Positions 11,880 through 23,604 of a stretch of DNA of 64,000 nt are shown piece by piece (within the stretch, counting starts at the first letter, position 1; each line of letters begins with the position of its first letter). The stretch is taken from IMG/VR virus record IMGVR_UViG_3300048502_000142, positions 1 to 64,000 of that record, one strand, 5' to 3'. The notes beneath the pieces were generated by a model that saw only the letters and a list, made by a program, of their open reading frames with translations, was not told the DNA's origin and made no database searches. This DNA comes from a virus (Duplodnaviria; Caudoviricetes). A program made the translations under genes and the position numbers.

Positions 11880-13679
11880 TCACGCGACGAAGCTCCCGTC
11901 CGGACCCTTCGCGATCGTTATCACCCGATCGATACCAGCGTGCTGGAGACCCCGGTGGTCGGCGAGGAAGATCCTACGCCCGTGCATGTCCGCCCGCTCC
12001 TTGAGCAGTTCGAGGAGGTCCTCGATCCCCGCCTCACTCAACCACGCGGTCGGCTCGTCCAGGACCTCGAAGTCGTAGCGGACGCCGCTCCACCTCTGGA
12101 TAAGCGAGGCCAGCCCAAAGGAGATGCACAGGCGGATGCGCTGTCCCTCCCCACCCGACCAGGCATCAAACCGCGCCTCGCCCGCGGGTGACGCGACGGA
12201 TATCTGGACGCCCGTCTTCGTCGTCCCGCTCTTCGTCTCCGTCTCGGTTACAAACGCGATCTTCCAGCCGACGAGCCCCAGCGAGTGCGCCGCGTTCATC
12301 GTGTCGAGCCCGAGCTGGTCCATGGCGCGGCCCATGCAGAACAGCCGGACCCGCTTAAACCCCTGCCGCCAGTAGTCTAGGCGCGCGATCCTCGACGCGA
12401 GGTCCTCCTCGGCCTTCCTCTGATCGCGGAGCTTCTCGCGCAGCGACCGCCGCTGGACACGCACCGCCTCCCGACGCTCGGCGTAGGGATTCGCCTCCGC
12501 CTCGACCCGGGCGTAGAGGGCGTGTGCGGATCGGACGTCGCGCTCGGCCGCTTCTACCTTCGCGTCGAGCTTCCCCGCGGTGACCTCGTGCTCGACGCGC
12601 TCGTCGCGGACCTTCTCCCATGCGGCGCGGCGTCGCTCGACCACTCCCTCGATCTTCGCGAGACGGTCCCGGAGGGTCTCCAGGCCGCCCACCGTCTCGG
12701 ACAGGGACCTCTCGACGTCCGCACGGAGCCTCTCCCTAGCCGCGGGATCCGCCGTCGCTATGGACTGACCGCACGTAGGACACACGTCGCTCTCGTCGAA
12801 CTCCGCGAGGTCCGCCCGCAGCCGGCGCTCCTCCGCGGCGGCGACGGCGATTTCCGCGCGGGCGGTAGCCTCGCGCCTCTGCGCCTGCCGGACAAGTTCC
12901 CGCGCCTCGGTATCGTCCGGCGCACCCCGCACCGCCAAGCGATCGCGCTCGATCGACAGGACGGCGGCGACCCCCTCAGCCTCCTCGATCTCGGCCTTGG
13001 CGACCTTGCGCCGCTCCGCGCGGACGTCGTCCCAGTCCTGGACCCGCGCCAGGAGGTCGTCCGCGGACTCCAGCGCGCCGAAGGCCCCCTCCGTCCGGCC
13101 GATGTCGACCTTCAAAGAATTAAGCTCGGAGGTCGCGGACGCGAGCTTCTTCCCGGCGACCTCAGACGCACGCAGCCACACGCCCAGACCCAGCACGTCG
13201 TCGAGCAGCTCGCCGCGCTCGGGGATCGAGCGGTCCACGAAGAGGGGGACGGCCTGACCGAAAATCACGGAGGACAGGAACCGGGCGCGGTTCAATCCGA
13301 GCAGCGCGTCGATCACCTCCTGCTCGACGCGGTGCTCCGCCGTCCTGCCGTCCAGGAAGACGTGCCCCGGCGGTCCCTTGCGGAAGACGACGCGGGGTTC
13401 TCCGTCGACCCGCAACCCGACCTCGACCTCCGTCGACTTCTCACCGTGGGAGACCAGATCGCCCACCTTAAGGCCGCGGACGGACTGCCCGTGGAAGCAC
13501 CACTCGATCCCGTCCCATACACTCGATTTCCCTGCGCCGTTCGCACCCAAGCGCGGTTCCACCCGATTGTCACCGGCGAAGAGGACGAGGCCGGGAGCGC
13601 CAGACAGGTCGATCCTCACCTTCTTCCGAAACGACCGGAATCGAGTGAGGATAACGTAGTCGAGGGAGACGGTCTTCAC
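11880..13679 (-). CDS. SbcC/Rad50/gp46-like SMC ATPase
   Basis: FRSF, GANGAGKSS Walker A, Q-loop, coiled coil with CPTC hook, WSGGEGQR signature, VLDEP. Confidence 0.92.
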   Translation of the reverse strand: MKTVSLDYVILTRFRSFRKKVRIDLSGAPGLVLFAGDNRVEPRLGANGAGKSSVWDGIEWCFHGQSVRGLKVGDLVSHGEKSTEVEVGLRVDGEPRVVFRKGPPGHVFLDGRTAEHRVEQEVIDALLGLNRARFLSSVIFGQAVPLFVDRSIPERGELLDDVLGLGVWLRASEVAGKKLASATSELNSLKVDIGRTEGAFGALESADDLLARVQDWDDVRAERRKVAKAEIEEAEGVAAVLSIERDRLAVRGAPDDTEARELVRQAQRREATARAEIAVAAAEERRLRADLAEFDESDVCPTCGQSIATADPAARERLRADVERSLSETVGGLETLRDRLAKIEGVVERRRAAWEKVRDERVEHEVTAGKLDAKVEAAERDVRSAHALYARVEAEANPYAERREAVRVQRRSLREKLRDQRKAEEDLASRIARLDYWRQGFKRVRLFCMGRAMDQLGLDTMNAAHSLGLVGWKIAFVTETETKSGTTKTGVQISVASPAGEARFDAWSGGEGQRIRLCISFGLASLIQRWSGVRYDFEVLDEPTAWLSEAGIEDLLELLKERADMHGRRIFLADHRGLQHAGIDRVITIAKGPDGSFVA

Positions 13680-14032
13680 GAACCGACGTCCCCCGCCACG
13701 TACCTGCCGAACCAGGCGGAGAGTTCGTAGGCTAAGTCGTGGGTCTCGGCCTCCGTGTACTGATTGCCCATAGCCTTCTGCCGCGCGTCCGCCCGCTGAG
13801 CGTACTTCTGAGTAAGGAACTCGAACAACTTCTCGACCGTCTCGTCGGCGCGTCCGGCGACGGCCCTCCACTTCACGGTCGAGGGCGTCCCGTCGAGAAA
13901 CGCTATGTCGACGTCTCCGTCGGAGTACACCGTCAGGACGCGGACCTTCACGATTCCCCGGTAGTAGGCGTCCTCACCCTCCCGGACGCGCCCCTGTCCG
14001 ATGTCGTACGACGCCACTGCCGCACTGCTCAT
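13676..14032 (-). CDS. Hypothetical protein
   Basis: Coupled between sbcD-like and sbcC-like genes; GGAGG RBS. Confidence 0.65.
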   Translation of the reverse strand: MSSAAVASYDIGQGRVREGEDAYYRGIVKVRVLTVYSDGDVDIAFLDGTPSTVKWRAVAGRADETVEKLFEFLTQKYAQRADARQKAMGNQYTEAETHDLAYELSAWFGRYVAGDVGS

Positions 14033-16941: not shown

Positions 16942-18018
16942 TCAGTCCCTCCTCTTCGGCTGACGCTCGACCTTGAACCTCTCCTCGACCTCGCGCCAGA
17001 CCCGGATCACCTCGTCCCGAAGCAGGTGCTCGGCGTCAGCCGCCTCGACCCGGTGCGCTGCCGATTCCAGAGAAGAACCGTACTTATCGTTACCGATATT
17101 GTACGTCGTCGCGCCGATCCGCTGCTTCAAATATTCGAGGTTCGCCGAGACGTCGTCTATCCCGTAGTCGAACATGATCTTTACGGGAGCGGTGTGGTAC
17201 GGCTCCCAGATCGACGACTTGTAGACGTAGATGTCCGTCTCGACGCCGACGACGCGGAATTCCTCCTTGCCGCCGATCTTCAGCTTCCGCTTGATCTTCT
17301 CGGGATTGCGGCACTGGAGGCGCAGGGAGGCGTAGAAACCGGTCGCCTCGCCGCCGGGCGTCTTGTACTTCTCCGCGTACGGGTTCGTCGACCGCTCCAT
17401 GTTGTGCCGAACCTGGTTCGAGCAGACGACCAGGAACCCCTGCTTCGTGATCGTCCGGCAGGTTACGCGGAGTTGCTCGGAAAACTCCTTCGCCCGCCGC
17501 TGCCCCATCTTATCGCCGCCGTCCATCTCCATATCCGTGGAGAGCGCGGCGAGGGAGTCCGCCATGACGCCGTTGATTCTGTCGGGGTCCTTCGGCTTCC
17601 ACTCCCGAATCTCGCCGAACACCTCGGTCACGGTGTCCGGCATGGAGATCCCCGCCTTGGAGGCGTCGAAGCCGAACAGAGACGCGAACTGGCGGTTGAG
17701 CCGCGCCTCCGGATCGTTGAACTTGACCTCTCCTCCAGCTCGCTGCACGCCCCCCGCAATCTCGCAGAGCAGCACCGTTTTTCCAGCACCGCTCGGCCCG
17801 AAGATCTCGACGAGGATGCCACCCGGCAGGCCACCGCGCTCGTAGATGCCGCCGGAGATAGCGAGGTCGAGCAGCGTCGACCCCGTCGAGATCAGACCGC
17901 CCCTCGGGGGCTCCGCGGTGCGCGCCTTCGCAGCCTTGCGGCGCGCTAGGGACTCGTCGACCTGATCGGAGATCTTCTGACCAGAGCCGGCCGGATGGGA
18001 ACGCCTCGTGAACGTCAC
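16942..18018 (-). CDS. recA: RecA/UvsX recombinase
   Basis: ISTGSTLLDLAISGG, VEIFGPSGAGKT, DPE, DSLAAL, NQVR, TPGGEA.GFYASLRL. Confidence 0.93.
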   Translation of the reverse strand: MTFTRRSHPAGSGQKISDQVDESLARRKAAKARTAEPPRGGLISTGSTLLDLAISGGIYERGGLPGGILVEIFGPSGAGKTVLLCEIAGGVQRAGGEVKFNDPEARLNRQFASLFGFDASKAGISMPDTVTEVFGEIREWKPKDPDRINGVMADSLAALSTDMEMDGGDKMGQRRAKEFSEQLRVTCRTITKQGFLVVCSNQVRHNMERSTNPYAEKYKTPGGEATGFYASLRLQCRNPEKIKRKLKIGGKEEFRVVGVETDIYVYKSSIWEPYHTAPVKIMFDYGIDDVSANLEYLKQRIGATTYNIGNDKYGSSLESAAHRVEAADAEHLLRDEVIRVWREVEERFKVERQPKRRD

Positions 18019-18061
18019 AGCCTCTCGGGAAACCCCGCCTCCTCAGACTTGTTGTTCAACG

Positions 18062-19315
18062 TCACGTCGCCGCCTCCCCAGCCTCCAGGCACGGCGCCCA
18101 CACCGGACAGTTGTCGCAGTCCGTCCCGAACTTGTCGTTGTCCTTGCCGAACGCGTGACCGTGCGGGCACTCCCCGGCGGGAGCCTTCGCGGCGGAGGGC
18201 TCCTTGTCCGCCCCGCGGGCAGAGCGGGGCTCCTCCTTCGGCTTGTCGGCCTCCTTAGGCTTCTCGTCGCGCGCGGTGCGGCGAGCCGACCGGGGATCAC
18301 GCTCCTCCTCCGGCTTCTCGTCCCGATCTCGCCGACTCGACCGGGTCTCCCGCTCGGGCTCCTCCTGCGGCTCGGATCGGCGGCTGGAGCGAGTCTCGCG
18401 CTCCGGCTCGGAGCGATCCCGGGAGGTGTGCCCCTCGTGCCCTGCGGAGCGCGTGCGACGTGCGTCGCGGTCGTCGGGCTCGTCTCCCCCACCCCGGTCC
18501 GACCGCGTCTCACCGCTCCCCGGGCGACCCGCAGCGGTGCGACCGTCGGCGTCGTCCGCCGCCCCGTCGCCGACCTCGAAGAAGAGCGCCTTGATCTCCT
18601 CGTAAGTCTTGAAGTCGAGCACGTCGTCGAGGGACGTCAACTCCTCGATGTCGCGCTCGTCGTACTTGTAGTTCCGGTCCTCGAAGTCGATGCGCGACGT
18701 CTTGGCGTACGTGTTCTTCCCCATCTTCTCCTCGGAGAAGCGGATCTTCAGCGTGTAGCCATTCTCCAGGTCGGGAAACTCCTCGTAGTCCGGGTTCTCC
18801 GACAGCTCGTCGTTCAGCACATCCTGGAAGCAGAACTGGGAGATGTCCCAGATATACGGCCTGTCCTCCAGCTTCTTCTCGTCCTTCGGCTGGACGTAGT
18901 AGAGGTTGCGGTCGCGCGGCGAGAGCGCCTTGACGTCCTCGTCCTTCCAGTTCGCCCCCTCCTTGTCCAGCAGGTGCTTCCGATGCTCGCAGATCGGGCA
19001 CTTCTTGCCGACGCTCGTCGGACAGATGACCGACGCGTTGCCCGAGCCCACGTTCCGGTGGAGCTTGTAGGGGCGGCGGTACCAGAACTTGTCCTTGACC
19101 GCGATCTCGTACTCGTCGTTGCGGTCGGGGTGGCGGTCGTCCGTGACCACGTAGGGCAGGATGTCGAGCGTCACGCGCGAGCCCGGCTCCTCCTTGAACA
19201 CCTGAATGCCCTTCGGCAGGATCAGGTGCCCGTAGCTCGCACCCCGCGCCTTTTGCTGCTGGCTGTTGTGCGACACCTTGCCCCGGAAAGACCCGCGACG
19301 GCTGTCTCTCGCCAT
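18062..19315 (-). CDS. gp32-like ssDNA-binding protein with long charged C-terminal tail
   Basis: HRN...ICPTSVGKKCPICE, DLENGYTLKI; adjacent to recA. Confidence 0.75.
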   Translation of the reverse strand: MARDSRRGSFRGKVSHNSQQQKARGASYGHLILPKGIQVFKEEPGSRVTLDILPYVVTDDRHPDRNDEYEIAVKDKFWYRRPYKLHRNVGSGNASVICPTSVGKKCPICEHRKHLLDKEGANWKDEDVKALSPRDRNLYYVQPKDEKKLEDRPYIWDISQFCFQDVLNDELSENPDYEEFPDLENGYTLKIRFSEEKMGKNTYAKTSRIDFEDRNYKYDERDIEELTSLDDVLDFKTYEEIKALFFEVGDGAADDADGRTAAGRPGSGETRSDRGGGDEPDDRDARRTRSAGHEGHTSRDRSEPERETRSSRRSEPQEEPERETRSSRRDRDEKPEEERDPRSARRTARDEKPKEADKPKEEPRSARGADKEPSAAKAPAGECPHGHAFGKDNDKFGTDCDNCPVWAPCLEAGEAAT

Positions 19316-19450
19316 GATGCTATTCTCCCTTGCTCGACTTGCCGAAGTAGCGGCGAGCCGACAGCCGACCCGCCTCCGCCCACTTGCTGGCGTAATAGAT
19401 CACGAAGGGTGCGACGGGCAGCCCCACTAGTATCCAGGCCCACGCGGGCA

Positions 19451-19942
19451 TCAGGTCCGCCTCCGGATCTTGACGCCCCTCTGCGCCTCCTCGTCCTTCT
19501 GGCGGCGCATCTCCCCGAGGTCGTGGGGCACCTTCGGGCCGGCGAAGTAGCTCTGACCGTGCAGGCGCACGAGGTTCTCCAGCGCCGTCTTCCGCTGATC
19601 GAAGGCGGCGACGACTCCGGTAGCGACGTTGAACTCGTACGACGAGTCAACGTAGGCACGGTTCGCCTTGATATAGTCCGGGTGATCGGCGATGGCCGCG
19701 GTGATGCCGCCCTCGGTTATGCCGCGGGGACCGGCGACGACCCCGTGCTTCTCGGGGTCCTCGCGGATTGCCTTGTCGACGCGCGCCCGCGTGACGTCCC
19801 GTATCTCCTTCGCCATGTCGAGTTCGCGCTGGGCCTCGGCCCTCGCGCGGGTGTACTTCAGCATCAGCTTTGGCTGGTTCAGCCACTCCACGTCGAGCGC
19901 CTGCTCATCGATCTCGATCTCTTCGTCGTACGTCACGATCAC
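19451..19942 (-). CDS. UvsY-like recombination mediator (putative)
   Basis: IDEQALDVEWLNQP, ITEGGI, AFDQRKTALENLV; helical; next to SSB and RecA. Confidence 0.6.
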   Translation of the reverse strand: MIVTYDEEIEIDEQALDVEWLNQPKLMLKYTRARAEAQRELDMAKEIRDVTRARVDKAIREDPEKHGVVAGPRGITEGGITAAIADHPDYIKANRAYVDSSYEFNVATGVVAAFDQRKTALENLVRLHGQSYFAGPKVPHDLGEMRRQKDEEAQRGVKIRRRT

Positions 19943-19966
19943 CTCCGCGCACTAGGACGTTATACG

Positions 19967-22615
19967 CTACGCGCCACCGTTGTCCCCGTTGACGACGCAG
20001 TACGAGGCGTGGACGAGACCAGGGAAGCCGCTGTCGTAGAAGTTGGAGACGAACTGGTCGAGCACGACCATCGCCCGCTCGTTCGCCCCCTTGAGCAATA
20101 TCACCGTGCAGTAGCCCAGGACGGCGCGGCGCGTCCGCTCCACGTCCTCGTCCTTAAGCTCCGCCAGGATCGAGGCGACCTCCTTCCACCCCTTCGCGCC
20201 GATCAGGGCGCGGCACAGGTCGATCGTCTTCGCCTCGGACGACTGGAACGACGCGAGCGTCGCGTCGGGATCCGCGATCATCTGCTGGAGCATCTGAATT
20301 GCGTCCCGGCAGTGTCCGCCGGACACCTCGACGATCTTCTGGATCGACGACCGCGGGATCTGCGCACCCTCCCTAGCCGCAATCCGACCGAGCAGCTTGA
20401 GCATCTCCGGTTCGGTAAGGAGATGCACGAGGAACGCGCTACAGCGCCCGCGAAGCGTCGGCAGGAGCTTCTCCGGCTCCGTCGTGCACAAAACGTAGTA
20501 GGCGTGTGCCGGAGGGTCCTCCAGGCCCTTCAGGAACGCCTCCTGCGCGTCCTTCGTGAGCTTGTGACAATTGTGAACGGCTACACCGCCCACGAAGTAG
20601 GACGGATCGTCCTCGACTTCTAGGTCGTGGAAGATCACGTATCCGCGACGACGCTCTTGATCTCTAATAATACCGAGGAAAGATCCGTCATTACAGCCTG
20701 GTTCGTAAACCTCAATACTCTCCACCCTAACGACGCAAGCTTCGGTACCTTCTTCTCGTCTAGCGTCCTTATGCGCTTCGAATTGTGAGAAACCCCGTCG
20801 ACTTCGATCGCTATCCTCAATTCCGAGTTCGCAATATCGACCTTGTAGTTGGACGGGAACCCGGCGTCCCCCGGAGCGTGTCCGGTCGGTATCGCAACCT
20901 CCGTCCTCCATCCCAACGTGGTCGCCAGAAGTATCTGCGGCGCAGTAAGCTTCCCATTGCCACCCCTGTTCCCCGACCGGAAAGCGTCTATCGTCCCATT
21001 TATCCGCTTCGTCACTAACGCCCTCGCTACGACCTCGGGCCGCGTGAACGGATTGTTCGTCTTCATCCGATCCGACGATGCTTTGCGCAAACGACGACCG
21101 CGCTCCGTACTCGAATCTAGGACCTTCGTATGGGCCTCGGACAGCTTCCTGCGGGTATCCTCGGATCGAACGAGCCCCGTCCGTTTGCGCCCCGCTAGGA
21201 TATTCCCACACACCTTGCCACACGTCTCGCGACCGAATTTCCTGGAACCGGCGAGGTAGTTCATCTCGCTCCCGCACACCGGGCACGGACGCGTCGGATA
21301 GTCCTTCGGCGGTTTCATCTTCCGGGACGAAGTTAGCGCACATAGTGCCGAACAGAACCGCTGCCTCTTCTTCTTCGGGACGAAGCCGTTCTCGCACGTC
21401 GGACAGATAATCTCGCCCACTATACATCTCCGCATAATCTTCGGAACCTACGATACACCGACCGACAGGCAGAAGCAAATCGCCGACCGACAATGTGCCT
21501 GCCTCTATCCACCTACCGTCCGAAGTCATAAACAAGTGTTCCAACGTCGTGTAGAGCGTTTGCCCAGTCGATAGACCCAAACGAACGATACGATGAAGAA
21601 GTACTACGTTCCTAAAAGTATTCAGAACTTTCGAGGGACCTACGAGACTGTAGACTACATCGCCGGGAACTACATGCTCGATTGGGCGATCTCCCTGCGG
21701 CATACTCACTAGAGTCCCCGAGGCAAAACACTCGTCGATCAGCCACAGGCGCCGGCCGCCACCCGTCCCCTTGTAGCCGGAGTTCCGGCGGATGTCGCGG
21801 ATCGAGTCGATGCCGCGGAAGTCCGCGCTGTCGATCTCGTTGTAATCTATCTCGGCGACGCCTAGCTCCGCAGCTATGAGGCGACCGATCGTCGTCTTGC
21901 CACAATTGTGATGTACCAAACCCGCAGCCCAGTAATTATTCCATACAGGCACATGAAAATCGAAATACGGCGCGCTCCCGATGTCTTCTATCTCTATAAT
22001 CCGATCGGTTGCGGACGATACGGAGACCGACCGTGAAGATTGGCCGCCCGCGCCTTCCAACGGAGGTGGTGTATCACAAGAATAAAGATAAGTCTGACAA
22101 TCGACCGGAGAACCTACTTCTATTTCAGAATAACGGGACTCACCTTGGAGTAGAACTCCTAAATCAGACGCCTCAATGGACAAAAGAGGGACGTTCCCGA
22201 ATCCTAAACCGGCAAGTTCCTTCAATGAAAGATATTCCCCGTCCTCCGAAAGGAACCGGTGTTCGACGGAGACGCAGACGACTGATCGAGCAGTTTTTAC
22301 ACGATACAGACGGGTTGAAGGATACCGGACCGGTGGCAGCGCTTGAGCTGCCACAAATCGACCGTCCCCCATCCACGACCACACATAAAAAGGGAGCCCG
22401 ATCCTATACCTTTCGGCGACGGACCTAACCATCCCCTCAACCGGATCAAAGATCGGAGTATCTCCTCTAAGACATCCGCTCGGACCCGCCAGAAGGTAGG
22501 CGTGGGGAGGGTCGGCGACGTCCAGGGTCGCCTTTAGGGTCTTGATCGTGTCCGCGTTCTTCGCCCCCGCCACATCGGCGAACGAGGCGGGGCGGTACTT
22601 CTGGTACAGCGACAT
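19967..22615 (-). CDS. dnaX: DnaX-like clamp loader AAA+ ATPase with two inteins
   Basis: MSLYQKYRPASF, HAYLLAGPSG/CGKTT, LIDE/CHKL, AFLKGLEDPP, CTTEPEKLLPTLRGRC, GHCRDA. Confidence 0.92.
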   Translation of the reverse strand: MSLYQKYRPASFADVAGAKNADTIKTLKATLDVADPPHAYLLAGPSGCLRGDTPIFDPVEGMVRSVAERYRIGLPFYVWSWMGDGRFVAAQALPPVRYPSTRLYRVKTARSVVCVSVEHRFLSEDGEYLSLKELAGLGFGNVPLLSIEASDLGVLLQGESRYSEIEVGSPVDCQTYLYSCDTPPPLEGAGGQSSRSVSVSSATDRIIEIEDIGSAPYFDFHVPVWNNYWAAGLVHHNCGKTTIGRLIAAELGVAEIDYNEIDSADFRGIDSIRDIRRNSGYKGTGGGRRLWLIDECFASGTLVSMPQGDRPIEHVVPGDVVYSLVGPSKVLNTFRNVVLLHRIVRLGLSTGQTLYTTLEHLFMTSDGRWIEAGTLSVGDLLLPVGRCIVGSEDYAEMYSGRDYLSDVRERLRPEEEEAAVLFGTMCANFVPEDETAEGLSDASVPGVRERDELPRRFQEIRSRDVWQGVWEYPSGAQTDGARSIRGYPQEAVRGPYEGPRFEYGARSSFAQSIVGSDEDEQSVHAARGRSEGVSDEADKWDDRRFPVGEQGWQWEAYCAADTSGDHVGMEDGGCDTDRTRSGGRRVPVQLQGRYCELGIEDSDRSRRGFSQFEAHKDARREEGTEACVVRVESIEVYEPGCNDGSFLGIIRDQERRRGYVIFHDLEVEDDPSYFVGGVAVHNCHKLTKDAQEAFLKGLEDPPAHAYYVLCTTEPEKLLPTLRGRCSAFLVHLLTEPEMLKLLGRIAAREGAQIPRSSIQKIVEVSGGHCRDAIQMLQQMIADPDATLASFQSSEAKTIDLCRALIGAKGWKEVASILAELKDEDVERTRRAVLGYCTVILLKGANERAMVVLDQFVSNFYDSGFPGLVHASYCVVNGDNGGA
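20570..21730 (-). mobile_element. Intein 2 in the DnaX Walker B motif (387 aa)
   Basis: LIDE|CFASGT...TTLEHLF...FHDLEVEDDPSYFVGGVAVHN|CHKL. Confidence 0.92.
20635..21420 (-). CDS. Zn-finger + Vsr/DUF559-type endonuclease encoded out of frame inside intein 2
   Basis: CPTC...FCSALC, CPVC...TCGKVC, SEDTRRKLSEA (NUMOD3-like), YKVDIA...IAIEVDGVSH...D..K...L..LGWRVLRFTN; GGAGA RBS before GTG 21420. Confidence 0.85.
   Translation of the reverse strand: MGEIICPTCENGFVPKKKRQRFCSALCALTSSRKMKPPKDYPTRPCPVCGSEMNYLAGSRKFGRETCGKVCGNILAGRKRTGLVRSEDTRRKLSEAHTKVLDSSTERGRRLRKASSDRMKTNNPFTRPEVVARALVTKRINGTIDAFRSGNRGGNGKLTAPQILLATTLGWRTEVAIPTGHAPGDAGFPSNYKVDIANSELRIAIEVDGVSHNSKRIRTLDEKKVPKLASLGWRVLRFTNQAVMTDLSSVLLEIKSVVADT
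21905..22474 (-). mobile_element. Intein 1 in the DnaX Walker A motif (190 aa)
   Basis: GPSG|CLRGDT...VSVEHRF...YFDFHVPVWNNYWAAGLVHHN|CGKTT. Confidence 0.9.
22009..22428 (+). pseudogene. HNH endonuclease remnant, antisense inside DnaX intein 1
   Basis: KIGRPRLPTEVVYHKNKDKSDNRPENLLLFQNNGTH matches the HNH_3 pattern; N-terminal part missing. Confidence 0.7.
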
Positions 22616-23604
22616 TACTCGACCTCTTCGTCGGAAAAGAGCTTGTTCGACCGGGCGCGAGGACCGTCCCTGGCGATCTTCTCGGCCTCCTTCAAATTTA
22701 GGACGGCCTGCCGGAAGTAGCTGCGTTTTAGCTCGAACCCTACGGCGCGGCGCCCGTTTATCACCGCCCCGTACGCCTCGGACCCGACGCCAAGAAACGG
22801 CGTCAGTACCGTCTCCCCAGGATTGCTCCAGAGGACGACACCACGATCGATCACGTCGAGCTGCAACGGGTGTACGTGCTTCTCGTCGTCCTCCTCCCGC
22901 GCCACCTTGAAGGGGAGCACCCGGTCGAGGCGCACGTCGTCCCAGAACGCATCGGCGTACTGTCGCCAGATCCAGTGCGAGTATTGGTTCTGCTTCTGGT
23001 CGCCGGAGAAGCCGCGGAAGCGCCGGAGGTGGTGGGGGATCTCGCGCTCTCCCGCGTATTCGAGCAGGCCGTTCGGGTGCTGGACGGGTACCGGGTTGTC
23101 GCCGGAGCGACGAAATATCAGCAGGTAGTCGGCGGAGGCCATCGAGCACCGGGACGCGTCCTCGACGATCGTCTGGTGCATTAGCCCCTTCTGCATCGTC
23201 CTATTGCGGACGCCGAGAGGCTCCTTCCACACGTGGTAGCGACCGACGTACGCCCACCCGAGGTCGCGGTGCAGCCGGATGACGTCCCCCGGGAAGTCCG
23301 TTAGCGCGTCGCAGCCGGTGTTGCCAGTCGGGACGTCCGCGCAGTGCACGAGGCTCATCCGGCCGGGCATCGTTACCCTATGCTTCTCCCGCACCACGAA
23401 CCCGTAGTGCTGCATGAACTCGTCGTAGTTCAGGCAGTTCGACAGGTCGCTCGGCGACGAGCTGTACTGGTAGAGCCCGGCAAAGGGCGGAGAGTAGACC
23501 GACAGGTGGACCGACGCGTCGGGTAGTCCCTTCATTCCCTCGACGCAGTCCCCGCAGTAGAGCGCGTAGCTGTCCTTCAAAACCTGATCCTTCACCTGAG
23601 CCAC
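22615..23604 (-). CDS. Amino (m4C/m6A) DNA methyltransferase, beta class
   Basis: GDC, SVYSPPF (motif IV), HVHPLQL, VLTPFLGVGSE (motif I), GFELK. Confidence 0.88.
   Translation of the reverse strand: MAQVKDQVLKDSYALYCGDCVEGMKGLPDASVHLSVYSPPFAGLYQYSSSPSDLSNCLNYDEFMQHYGFVVREKHRVTMPGRMSLVHCADVPTGNTGCDALTDFPGDVIRLHRDLGWAYVGRYHVWKEPLGVRNRTMQKGLMHQTIVEDASRCSMASADYLLIFRRSGDNPVPVQHPNGLLEYAGEREIPHHLRRFRGFSGDQKQNQYSHWIWRQYADAFWDDVRLDRVLPFKVAREEDDEKHVHPLQLDVIDRGVVLWSNPGETVLTPFLGVGSEAYGAVINGRRAVGFELKRSYFRQAVLNLKEAEKIARDGPRARSNKLFSDEEVE

What the first reader, a model, noticed from the sequence alone, without database searches (positions are those of the whole stretch)
21905..22474. Second intein in the same gene hides an HNH endonuclease on the antisense strand
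Seen: intein 1 (Walker A, 190 aa) looks like a mini-intein with a junk linker. The opposite strand (22009-22428) reads KIGRPRLPTEVVYHKNKDKSDNRPENLLLFQNNGTHL, a close match to the HNH_3 pattern GRxLxxxEVVHHxNxDKxDNRxENL. The usual upstream HRxVME segment is missing, which suggests decay by an in-frame deletion. Inference: an independent case of a nuclease overprinted on an intein, with a different nuclease family and orientation. An antisense arrangement cannot arise from simple sequencing indels, so it supports the previous finding as a real strategy.
Basis: partly seen in the sequence, partly recalled or inferred. Interest (0 to 1): 0.85.

Follow-up and report, generated by a model that had tools for sequence, protein, structure and literature searches.

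The report
Decayed antisense HNH gene inside intein
A self-splicing insert (intein) in a peat phage's clamp-loader gene still carries, on the opposite DNA strand, the rear half of an HNH homing-endonuclease gene; related phage inteins carry that gene whole, so the antisense layout is real and widespread, but this copy looks like a decaying relic.

Summary
Window 21905-22474 (minus strand) is a 190-aa intein in the Walker A loop of a phage clamp-loader gene. Its opposite strand holds a 139-aa ORF (22009-22428) that passes Pfam's HNH_3 threshold.

Related inteins at the same site are about 300 aa. They carry a complete 220-245-aa antisense gene (HTH plus HNH) with a Shine-Dalgarno site and, in most loci, a sigma-70-like promoter. 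The window ORF is 59% identical to residues 115-219 of that protein, so its first ~112 codons have been deleted.

- In about 90 loci from two collections the HNH ORF lies antisense in an open host frame, always in the same codon register.
- The host genes differ: clamp loader, terminase, SMC-like and TraG-like ATPases.
- Synonymous shuffles give 3-11 sense-frame stops; none is observed.
- Codon-position variability shows selection on the HNH frame in the linker. It shows constraint on both frames where the HNH tail overlaps the intein N-lobe.

The window copy lacks the HTH domain, has HH changed to YH, and has no recognisable -35 box. It is most likely an immobile mini-intein that still splices.

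Antisense homing endonucleases in inteins are published for LAGLIDADG and VSR-like nucleases. I found no paper describing an antisense HNH. This scan has noted the same layout before on other DNA.

The parts
19967..22615 (-). Host gene: phage clamp-loader (DnaX/RFC-like AAA+) of 882 aa with two inteins; the exteins total about 305 aa
   Evidence: Translation. Pfam DNA_pol3_delta2 at 46.7 bits, plus weak sub-threshold AAA (17.4 bits against a cut-off of 21.2) and RFC-lid matches. Homologues P0002-P0005.
21905..22474 (-). Intein 1, 190 aa, inserted in Walker A (GPSG | C...HHN | CGKTT). GC is 51% against 65-67% in the exteins.
   Evidence: The AlphaFold model matches mini-intein structures (Mtu RecA, Npu DnaB, Ssp DnaE; E about 1e-6).
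22163..22474 (-). Intein N-lobe (aa 1-104; Cys1; block B S-x-x-H). It is co-encoded with the C-terminal tail of the antisense ORF.
   Evidence: pLDDT 84-94. In relatives, sense third-position variability here falls to 0.33, against 0.60-0.73 in non-overlapped parts.
22016..22162 (-). Intein linker (aa 105-153): the sense-strand read-through of the HNH core remnant, predicted disordered
   Evidence: pLDDT about 30. Sense-frame identity among relatives in the linker is only 22%, against 52% for the HNH frame.
21905..22015 (-). Intein C-lobe (aa 154-190; blocks F and G; terminal His-Asn)
   Evidence: Pfam Intein_splicing partial match to aa 155-190.
22009..22428 (+). Antisense ORF of 139 aa (TTG start; 131 aa from the GTG at 22033): a truncated HNH endonuclease gene homologous to residues about 113-220 of the 230-aa full-length protein
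22054..22125 (+). HNH_3 core match (EVVYH...DN...ENL...), with Tyr in place of the first His of the family's HH pair
   Evidence: Pfam match to ORF residues 16-39. H to Y at a column invariant in the 10 full-length copies.
21995..22000 (+). TATAAT, retained -10-like hexamer antisense to the Ile-Ile codons of the C-lobe. No acceptable -35 box accompanies it.
   Evidence: Sequence. Relatives have TTGACA-like and TATAAT-like hexamers at the homologous place. The window scan found no full promoter.
22022..22035 (+). SD-like GGAG, a 7-nt spacer, then an in-frame GTG. This is a possible start for the truncated ORF; whether it is ancestral or used is unknown.
   Evidence: Sequence. Full-length relatives have AGGAG 6-9 nt before their ATG.
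20570..21730 (-). Intein 2 of the same gene (387 aa), given as context. It holds a same-strand, out-of-frame ORF (20635-21435) of the DUF559/Vsr-like nuclease family.

Best explanation
Intein 1 is a deletion derivative (mini-intein) of a lineage of phage inteins that sit in the Walker A loops of P-loop ATPases. These inteins carry their homing endonuclease as a separate gene on the antisense strand.

In full-length members the host mRNA is translated straight through the element. The two Hint lobes fold and splice. The roughly 150-aa linker between them is only the stop-free reverse reading of the nuclease gene. From the other strand, a promoter lying opposite the C-lobe codons, followed by an SD and an ATG, expresses a 220-245-aa HTH plus HNH_3 protein. 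That protein is inferred to cut intein-less alleles in co-infecting phages, so that repair copies the whole element in.

In this window a deletion of about 330 nt, in frame for the intein, removed roughly the first 112 codons of the HNH gene: the HTH DNA-binding domain and the EHRLVME segment. What remains is the beta-beta-alpha-metal core and the tail that overlaps the N-lobe. The intein keeps all its splicing residues and should still splice. The nuclease remnant is most likely inactive as a homing enzyme, so the element is stranded at the decay stage of the homing cycle.

Shown here: homology, truncation, nesting, register, selection on both frames, and the Hint fold. Inferred: transcription from the antisense promoter, cleavage of the empty site, and loss of activity in the window copy.
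For: - HNH identity: Pfam HNH_3 at 28.4 bits against a cut-off of 24.8; PHROG HNH families at E 6e-7.
- Full-length relative: L001 has a 307-aa intein at the same site with a 230-aa antisense ORF (HNH_3 at 30.7 bits, weak N-terminal HTH matches). The window ORF matches its residues 115-219 at 59% identity, E 4e-44.
- Recurrence when searching with the intein: 33 of the 34 distinct viral contigs with an HNH match have the ORF antisense, with the host frame open through it and the same codon register. In 31 of them the ORF is complete; L017 and L018 carry truncated remnants.
- Recurrence when searching with HNH motifs only: 58 of 59 metagenome loci are nested the same way.
- Different hosts: clamp loader, terminase large subunit, SMC-like and TraG-like ATPases, with junctions such as HHN|[CST]GK[ST].
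- Sense frame kept open by selection: 0 stops in 22 non-redundant loci, against 2.6-11.3 expected from synonymous-codon shuffles. The other two opposite frames hold 1-24 stops. The dipeptides F-[KNTIM], which this register forbids, are absent.
- Selection on the HNH frame: pairwise differences per HNH codon position are 0.33/0.23/0.59 in the core. In the sense frame the linker shows the inverted pattern 0.43/0.62/0.33. The N-lobe under the HNH tail shows 0.26/0.28/0.33, against 0.44/0.29/0.60 for the non-overlapped part of the intein.
- Expression signals in relatives: a conserved MPKG[IVF]Y start, AGGAG 6-9 nt upstream, and -35/-10-like hexamers. The best promoter score averages 8.5 against 6.6 in control windows, and 33 of 57 loci score at least 9 of 12.
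- Decay in the window: the HTH and EHRLVME segments are absent. Five of 34 family-invariant residues are lost, including HH to YH, against 0-3 in each full-length copy. There is no -35 box, and no second copy in the 92-kb genome.
- Independent truncations occur in L017, L018, L069 and L081.
- The intein is intact: Cys1, S-x-x-H, blocks F and G, and Cys+1 are present. Lobe pLDDT is 84-94 and 69-93 with a linker of about 30. Foldseek matches mini-inteins at E 1e-6.
- Recent import: intein GC3 is 47% against 86-89% in the exteins.
Against: - No experiment or stranded RNA data show the antisense transcript or the nuclease activity in any member.
- The window remnant is still an open 139-codon frame. 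It keeps a -10 hexamer, an SD-like GGAG and an in-frame GTG, and it retains the putative general-base His and the Asn residues, so residual expression or activity cannot be excluded.
- No close high-GC relative was found, so neither the deletion end-points nor relaxed selection in this lineage could be measured directly.
- The Pfam Intein_splicing score of intein 1 alone is below threshold (15.7 against 35.8). Membership rests on motifs, alignment and fold.
Confidence: 0.8

Rival explanations
1. The truncated antisense ORF is still expressed (from the -10 hexamer, GGAG and GTG at 22033) and is a working minimal HNH nuclease or nickase. It might act without its own HTH domain, or its transcript might modulate clamp-loader expression.
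For: - The frame is open for 139 codons.
- TATAAT at 21995-22000 and GGAG 7 nt before an in-frame GTG are present.
- The core His and Asn residues are retained.
- A peat metatranscriptome library holds a 467-nt contig covering 22021-22487 only.
- Small stand-alone HNH proteins of about 100-130 aa are known to work in phages (general knowledge).
Against: - The DNA-binding HTH and the conserved EHRLVME segment are gone.
- Five invariant residues are lost, including the first His of HH.
- No -35 box is present.
- Much of the frame's openness is inherited from the part constrained by the intein N-lobe.
- Other truncated copies are broken or much shorter: L017 36 aa, L081 61 aa, L071 34 aa.
- The RNA contig carries no strand information, and DNA carry-over is possible.
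Confidence: 0.12
2. In the family as a whole the antisense ORF is a fossil of a single ancient insertion and is no longer used. The inteins persist or move by other means, and the apparent conservation is a by-product of constraint on the sense strand.
For: No direct evidence of expression or cleavage exists for any member. The tail of the ORF does overlap the constrained N-lobe.
Against: - In the linker, where the sense product is disordered and only 22% conserved, the variability pattern is that of purifying selection on the antisense frame.
- Complete ORFs with a conserved N-terminus, SD and promoter-like sites persist at 35-60% identity across about 57 non-redundant loci.
- Related elements occupy different host genes.
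- The window intein is compositionally foreign.
Confidence: 0.05
3. The HNH-like reading is a chance or compositional artefact of the reverse strand of an ordinary mini-intein linker.
For: Long spurious antisense ORFs are common in GC-rich DNA, and this window has many.
Against: The Pfam score is above the curated threshold. Identity to a full antisense HNH gene in relatives is 59% at E 4e-44. Tblastn matches free-standing phage HNH genes. The region is the least GC-rich part of the gene.
Confidence: 0.01

Closest known systems
Non-canonical inteins with an anti-sense homing endonuclease: Synechocystis DnaX intein and Chloroflexus SpoVR-like intein (Gorbalenya 1998, Gogarten 2002, as cited in bioRxiv 10.1101/2025.01.02.630785), and actinobacteriophage inteins with anti-sense LAGLIDADG or VSR-like nucleases (same preprint)
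   Same: The nuclease is a separate ORF on the strand opposite the intein. The intein frame stays open through it. The in-frame product of that stretch has no recognisable structure. The pair is thought to move as a unit. Mini-inteins are the expected decay products.
   Different: The nuclease here is HNH_3 with an N-terminal HTH. That preprint lists HNH only as an in-frame domain. The hosts here are Walker A loops of clamp loaders and other P-loop ATPases in uncultivated phages. The window copy is a truncated remnant. I could not read Gorbalenya 1998 itself.
Cyanobacterial dnaX intein with an out-of-frame LAGLIDADG endonuclease (bioRxiv 10.64898/2026.09.14.751524)
   Same: The host gene family is the same (DnaX/clamp loader). 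The nuclease is overlapping and under purifying selection while the intein frame above it evolves freely. Mini-intein alleles coexist. The authors propose origin by secondary invasion of a mini-intein.
   Different: The nuclease family differs (LAGLIDADG), it is described there as a +2 ORF, and the hosts are cellular cyanobacteria. I did not compare insertion sites.
[quoted passage not shown] 1997, cited)
   Same: A Hint splicing domain is combined with an HNH-type nuclease used for homing.
   Different: There the nuclease is part of the intein polypeptide. Here it is a separate protein from the opposite strand with its own expression signals.
Fractured genes: split inteins with a free-standing endonuclease gene between the halves (Dassa et al. 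2009, PMC2677866)
   Same: A free-standing homing-endonuclease gene is lodged in the intein's endonuclease slot. Related free-standing nucleases exist in phages.
   Different: In fractured genes the host frame is interrupted and splicing is in trans. Here the host frame is kept open, so splicing stays in cis. L036 may be an intermediate, since its sense frame is broken while its HNH ORF is intact.
[quoted passage not shown] 2025, PMC11855218)
   Same: An HNH gene is hidden in an alternative frame of an insertion whose host frame has no stops.
   Different: ShiLan is on the same strand, has no detectable splicing domain, and no RBS was found. Here the gene is antisense, sits inside a clear Hint domain, and has an SD in relatives.
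Free-standing phage HNH_3 endonucleases (for example annotated HNH genes of Pseudoalteromonas phage PHS3, Halobacterium phage phiH and Streptomyces phages; metagenomic locus L090)
   Same: Identity is 35-50% over the HNH core. L090 shares the HTH plus HNH plus tail-motif architecture, with its own promoter and SD.
   Different: These genes are not nested in another gene.

Membership tests
Intein (class 1, Hint fold) | N-terminal Cys/Ser nucleophile and a C-terminal His-Asn followed by a Cys/Ser/Thr +1 residue, inserted in frame at a conserved host motif | tested here: met
   GPSG | CLRGDT ... LVHHN | CGKTT in Walker A. The same junction occurs in 12 relatives.
Intein (class 1, Hint fold) | Block B T-x-x-H and block F/G motifs | tested here: met
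   The window has S-V-E-H where relatives have T-S-E-H, a conservative change. YFDFHVP and NNYWAAGLVHHN are conserved.
Intein (class 1, Hint fold) | Hint fold | tested here: met
   AlphaFold lobes have pLDDT 84-94 and 69-93. Foldseek matches Mtu RecA, Npu DnaB and Ssp DnaE/DnaB mini-inteins at E about 1e-6, probability 1.0. The Pfam Intein_splicing score for intein 1 alone is only 15.7 bits, below the 35.8 cut-off.
Intein (class 1, Hint fold) | Protein splicing activity | not testable with these tools
   Inferred from intact motifs and from the essential role of a clamp loader.
HNH_3 / His-Me finger nuclease (PF13392) | Profile match above the curated threshold | tested here: met
   28.4 bits against 24.8 for the window ORF, but covering only model positions 15-39 of 46. 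The full-length relative scores 30.7 bits over positions 4-39.
HNH_3 / His-Me finger nuclease (PF13392) | Complete catalytic core (His general base, Asn, metal ligands) in a beta-beta-alpha fold | tested here: inconclusive
   The second His of HH, the DN and ENL Asn residues and the downstream His are kept. The first His is Tyr. The model of the fragment has mean pLDDT 69 and finds no PDB match.
Functional homing endonuclease | A DNA-binding module giving site specificity | tested here: not met
   The N-terminal HTH region (weak Pfam HTH matches; PDB 2lvs at E 1e-4) is present in full-length relatives and deleted in the window.
Functional homing endonuclease | Cleavage of the empty allele and sporadic distribution | not tested
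Indirect support: foreign composition and related elements in different host genes.
Non-canonical intein with an anti-sense homing endonuclease | A nuclease ORF on the opposite strand inside the intein, with the intein frame open through it | tested here: met
   In the window the remnant ORF lies inside an open intein. Relatives: 33 of 34 and 58 of 59 loci. There are 0 sense-frame stops against 3-11 expected.
Non-canonical intein with an anti-sense homing endonuclease | The nuclease frame is under purifying selection | tested here: met
   Met for full-length relatives. It could not be measured for the window lineage because no close relatives were found.

The most novel reading that the evidence does not exclude
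Antisense-HNH inteins may be one old composite mobile element that papers have not described. It would be a P-loop-targeting Hint domain whose endonuclease slot holds a reverse-oriented HTH-HNH gene in a fixed codon register. Its promoter would be overprinted on the C-lobe codons and its C-terminal tail co-encoded with the N-lobe. The element would hop between clamp-loader, terminase, SMC-like and TraG-like genes of environmental phages and repeatedly decay by loss of the 5' half of the nuclease gene, as in this window. A bolder version is that the truncated, still-open remnant here is kept because its product or its antisense transcript does something for the phage.
Probability: 0.5. Interest if true: 0.7.

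Novelty: new variant of a known kind. Interest (0 to 1): 0.6.

Why it matters
**Mis-annotation.** Gene callers report only the long host ORF, so these nucleases go uncalled and the intein linker is taken for junk or an unknown domain.

**A test case for dual coding.** Two proteins and a promoter share one stretch of DNA under measurable, position-specific constraints. Examples are the forbidden F-[KNTIM] dipeptides, the halved synonymous variability over the N-lobe, and the inverted codon-position pattern in the linker.

**How inteins and nucleases associate.** The data fit a free-standing homing-endonuclease gene invading a mini-intein in reverse orientation and then travelling with it. The truncated copies, including this window, document the decay stage of the homing cycle.

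**Practical use.** The family offers compact P-loop mini-inteins and candidate site-specific HNH enzymes.

Tried and rejected
DNA of the homologues was obtained with the search for related loci instead.
- No close relative of this phage's gene was found by blastn in cultured phages, in viral contigs or in metagenome contigs. The deletion end-points and lineage-specific selection could therefore not be measured.
- The promoter and terminator scan of window 21700-22700 found nothing. Only the -10 hexamer is left.
- The fold of the 131-aa remnant (mean pLDDT 69) gave no PDB match by Foldseek. This is not evidence against HNH.
- A profile search of PDB sequences matched only the HTH part (2lvs).
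- Sequencing runs: one peat metatranscriptome library holds contigs on 22021-22487, 21562-21712 and 20487-20723. These are contigs without strand information, and DNA carry-over is possible, so they do not show transcription of either strand.
- Gorbalenya 1998 is not held in the library. Its content is cited second-hand.
- The Gordonia phage GAL1 hit is a same-strand HNH inside an annotated gene, not an antisense case.
- No cultured-phage record covers 80% or more of the full-length HNH.
- Other overlapping ORFs near the window's other inteins gave no Pfam match.
- Literature searches for antisense or anti-sense HNH in inteins returned only the papers cited here.
- Considered and rejected: misassembly or inversion artefact, because the layout recurs in about 90 independent contigs. 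Also rejected: a group I intron rather than an intein, because the frame is open, the Hint fold is present and the junction residues fit.
Full report
**What is at the coordinates.** The window comes from a 91.9-kb IMG/VR virus record that CheckV estimates to be about 90% complete. DNA runs from peat metagenomes hold the stretch. The minus-strand gene 19967-22615 encodes an 882-aa clamp-loader-like AAA+ protein (Pfam DNA_pol3_delta2, plus weak sub-threshold AAA and RFC-lid matches). Two inteins interrupt it. Intein 1 occupies exactly 21905-22474 and is 190 aa long. It splits the Walker A motif (GPSG | C...HHN | CGKTT).

**Is the HNH reading real?** Yes.
- The ORF scores 28.4 bits on Pfam HNH_3, above the curated cut-off of 24.8.
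- It matches eleven PHROG HNH families, the best at E 6e-7.
- By tblastn it finds annotated HNH genes in cultured phages.
- The sense-strand product of the same DNA matches no PHROG family, and its only Pfam match is a sub-threshold Intein_splicing hit to the C-lobe.

**Relatives decide the interpretation.** A search with the intein region of the host protein found clamp loaders of 607-620 aa. They carry an intein of about 300 aa at the same site, and its middle reads as F/L/S-rich junk. The DNA of one of them (L001) shows why. The opposite strand holds a complete 230-aa ORF with weak N-terminal HTH matches and an HNH_3 domain (30.7 bits). The window ORF aligns to residues 115-219 of that protein at 59% identity, E 4e-44.

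A profile search of viral contigs gave 43 loci. Of the 34 distinct contigs with an HNH match, 33 have the ORF on the strand antisense to the intein, with the host frame open through it and always in the same register: antisense codon position 1 lies opposite sense codon position 1. In 31 of these the ORF is complete (165-298 aa); L017 and L018 carry truncated remnants.

A second search used only two HNH peptide motifs and knew nothing about inteins. It returned 59 metagenome loci, and 58 are nested in the same way and register. Only L090 is free-standing. Host proteins include clamp loaders, terminase large subunits, and SMC-like and TraG-like ATPases, with junctions of the type HHN|[CST]GK[ST]. 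The arrangement is therefore a heritable, mobile unit and not an accident of one sequence.

**Both strands are under selection.**
- In 22 non-redundant loci the sense frame has no stop across the HNH ORF. Shuffling synonymous codons of the HNH gene gives a mean of 2.6-11.3 stops, with at most 1.8% of shuffles reaching zero. The other two opposite frames hold 1-24 stops.
- In this register a sense stop arises from an HNH codon NTT, NCT or NTC followed by a codon starting with A. Phe followed by Lys, Asn, Thr, Ile or Met therefore cannot be encoded. None of the F residues in the 22 HNH proteins is followed by one of these.
- Among ten full-length clamp-loader alleles, pairwise differences per HNH codon position in the core are 0.33/0.23/0.59, the signature of purifying selection on the HNH frame.
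- Read in the sense frame, the exteins and the non-overlapped start of the intein show the normal pattern (0.51/0.38/0.73, 0.44/0.29/0.60 and 0.41/0.28/0.67).
- The linker shows the inverted pattern 0.43/0.62/0.33, with only 22% amino-acid identity.
- The N-lobe segment under the HNH tail shows 0.26/0.28/0.33. Its synonymous sites are about half as variable as elsewhere, as expected if both products matter there. The free-standing L090 protein keeps the first tail motif (GKxPxWTxxG), so at least that part belongs to the nuclease proper.

**Expression signals.** All ten clamp-loader alleles start with MPKG[IVF]Y and have AGGAG-like sites 6-9 nt upstream. They also have TTGACA-like and TATAAT-like hexamers that lie opposite the C-lobe codons; the conserved Ile-Ile codons ATT ATA read TATAAT on the other strand. 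Over 57 non-redundant complete ORFs the best sigma-70 match upstream averages 8.5 of 12, against 6.6 in control windows, and 33 loci reach 9 or more. These are consensus matches. Transcription has not been shown.

**The state of the window copy.**
- It lacks the first ~112 codons: the HTH region and the GYV...EHRLVME segment.
- It has lost 5 of the 34 residues that are invariant in the ten full-length proteins, including the first His of the HH pair (now Tyr). Each full-length copy has lost 0-3.
- One of these losses (Leu to Arg, position 22052) is polymorphic. A second peat DNA run and the RNA library carry the ancestral Leu, and the change is silent in the intein frame.
- The -10 hexamer survives at 21995-22000, but no acceptable -35 box does.
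- A GGAG lies 7 nt before an in-frame GTG at 22033.
- There is no other copy of the nuclease in the 92-kb genome.

The intein itself looks sound. It has Cys1, S-x-x-H, blocks F and G, and Cys+1. An AlphaFold model has confident lobes and a linker with pLDDT about 30, and it matches solved mini-inteins at E about 1e-6.

Intein 1 is compositionally foreign, at 51% GC (GC3 47%) against 65-67% (GC3 86-89%) in the exteins. This points to recent import from a lower-GC donor; the relatives' HNH genes are 38-66% GC, and the closest (clamp-loader) group 39-47%. Independent truncations that also remove the 5' part of the nuclease gene occur in L017, L018, L069 and L081.

The most economical reading is the decay stage of a homing cycle. 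A full element invaded, the nuclease gene then lost its 5' half by a deletion that kept the intein frame, and a splicing-competent mini-intein remains.

**What remains open.** No tool here can show the antisense transcript, the cleavage site, or whether the 131-139-aa remnant is made. A peat metatranscriptome library holds a 467-nt contig on 22021-22487. It is an unstranded contig from a library that may contain DNA, so I do not count it as evidence.

**Comparison with what is known.** Antisense or out-of-frame homing endonucleases in inteins are an established, if little known, category called non-canonical inteins.
- Anti-sense LAGLIDADG is reported in the Synechocystis DnaX and a Chloroflexus intein (Gorbalenya 1998 and Gogarten 2002, as cited).
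- An overlapping LAGLIDADG occurs in cyanobacterial dnaX inteins (bioRxiv 10.64898/2026.09.14.751524).
- An out-of-frame HNH occurs in phage methylase insertions that lack splicing domains (PMC11855218).

The preprint lists HNH only as an in-frame domain. None of the other papers I read, and none of my five full-text searches, turned up an antisense HNH inside an intein.

This scan has noted antisense HNH genes in inteins before on other DNA. One search found 196 notes in 162 genomes that hold the search words; seven of the eight shown describe an antisense nuclease gene in an intein, mostly an HNH in a terminase P-loop. One of those notes led me to the 1998 reference.

I therefore class the finding as a new variant of a known kind. 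The window itself contributes a decayed member in a clamp-loader gene. The analysis adds the fixed register, the overprinted promoter, the dual-coded N-lobe and tail, and the repeated loss of the 5' half.

**Verdict.** The best explanation is a relic of an antisense-HNH homing intein, with confidence about 0.8. Interest is 0.6.

Noticed in passing
window 20570-21730 (minus); ORF 20635-21435 (minus): Intein 2 of the same gene (387 aa, after LIDE) has an in-frame middle with no recognisable domain. A same-strand, out-of-frame 266-aa ORF matches Pfam DUF559/Vsr-like nuclease (45 bits, cut-off 20.6).
   Followed up: partly
window 7484-38427: The replication module is unusually rich in inteins. The ribonucleotide reductase and a 1408-aa protein have in-frame LAGLIDADG inteins. 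The PolA fragment and a C5 methyltransferase also show intein splicing motifs.
   Followed up: no
L036:1-2007: In one high-GC viral contig (AAA+ host gene) the antisense HNH ORF is intact (236 aa) but the host frame is broken inside the linker. This could be a frameshift, a pseudogene, or a step towards a split intein or 'fractured gene'.
   Followed up: partly
L090:611-1258: This is the only free-standing relative found. It is a 208-aa HTH plus HNH protein with the same tail motif, a near-consensus promoter (TTGACG, 16 nt, TATAAT) and an SD. It lies between a helicase-like gene and another ORF, and is a plausible model of the ancestor that invaded a mini-intein.
   Followed up: partly
window 22052: A G>T polymorphism appears in a second peat DNA run and in the RNA library. 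It is silent in the intein frame but changes Arg back to the family-invariant Leu in the antisense frame.
   Followed up: partly
P0006 (694-aa SMC/Rad50-like protein from another contig): It carries a related mini-intein of about 150 aa in its Walker A loop (33% identity to intein 1 over its full length). I did not check the window's own SMC-like gene (11880-13871) for an intein.
   Followed up: no
window 18008-20623 (plus): An 871-aa open frame lies opposite the clamp-loader C-extein and the neighbouring genes. It is probably one of the spurious long antisense ORFs typical of 65% GC DNA and was not examined.
   Followed up: no
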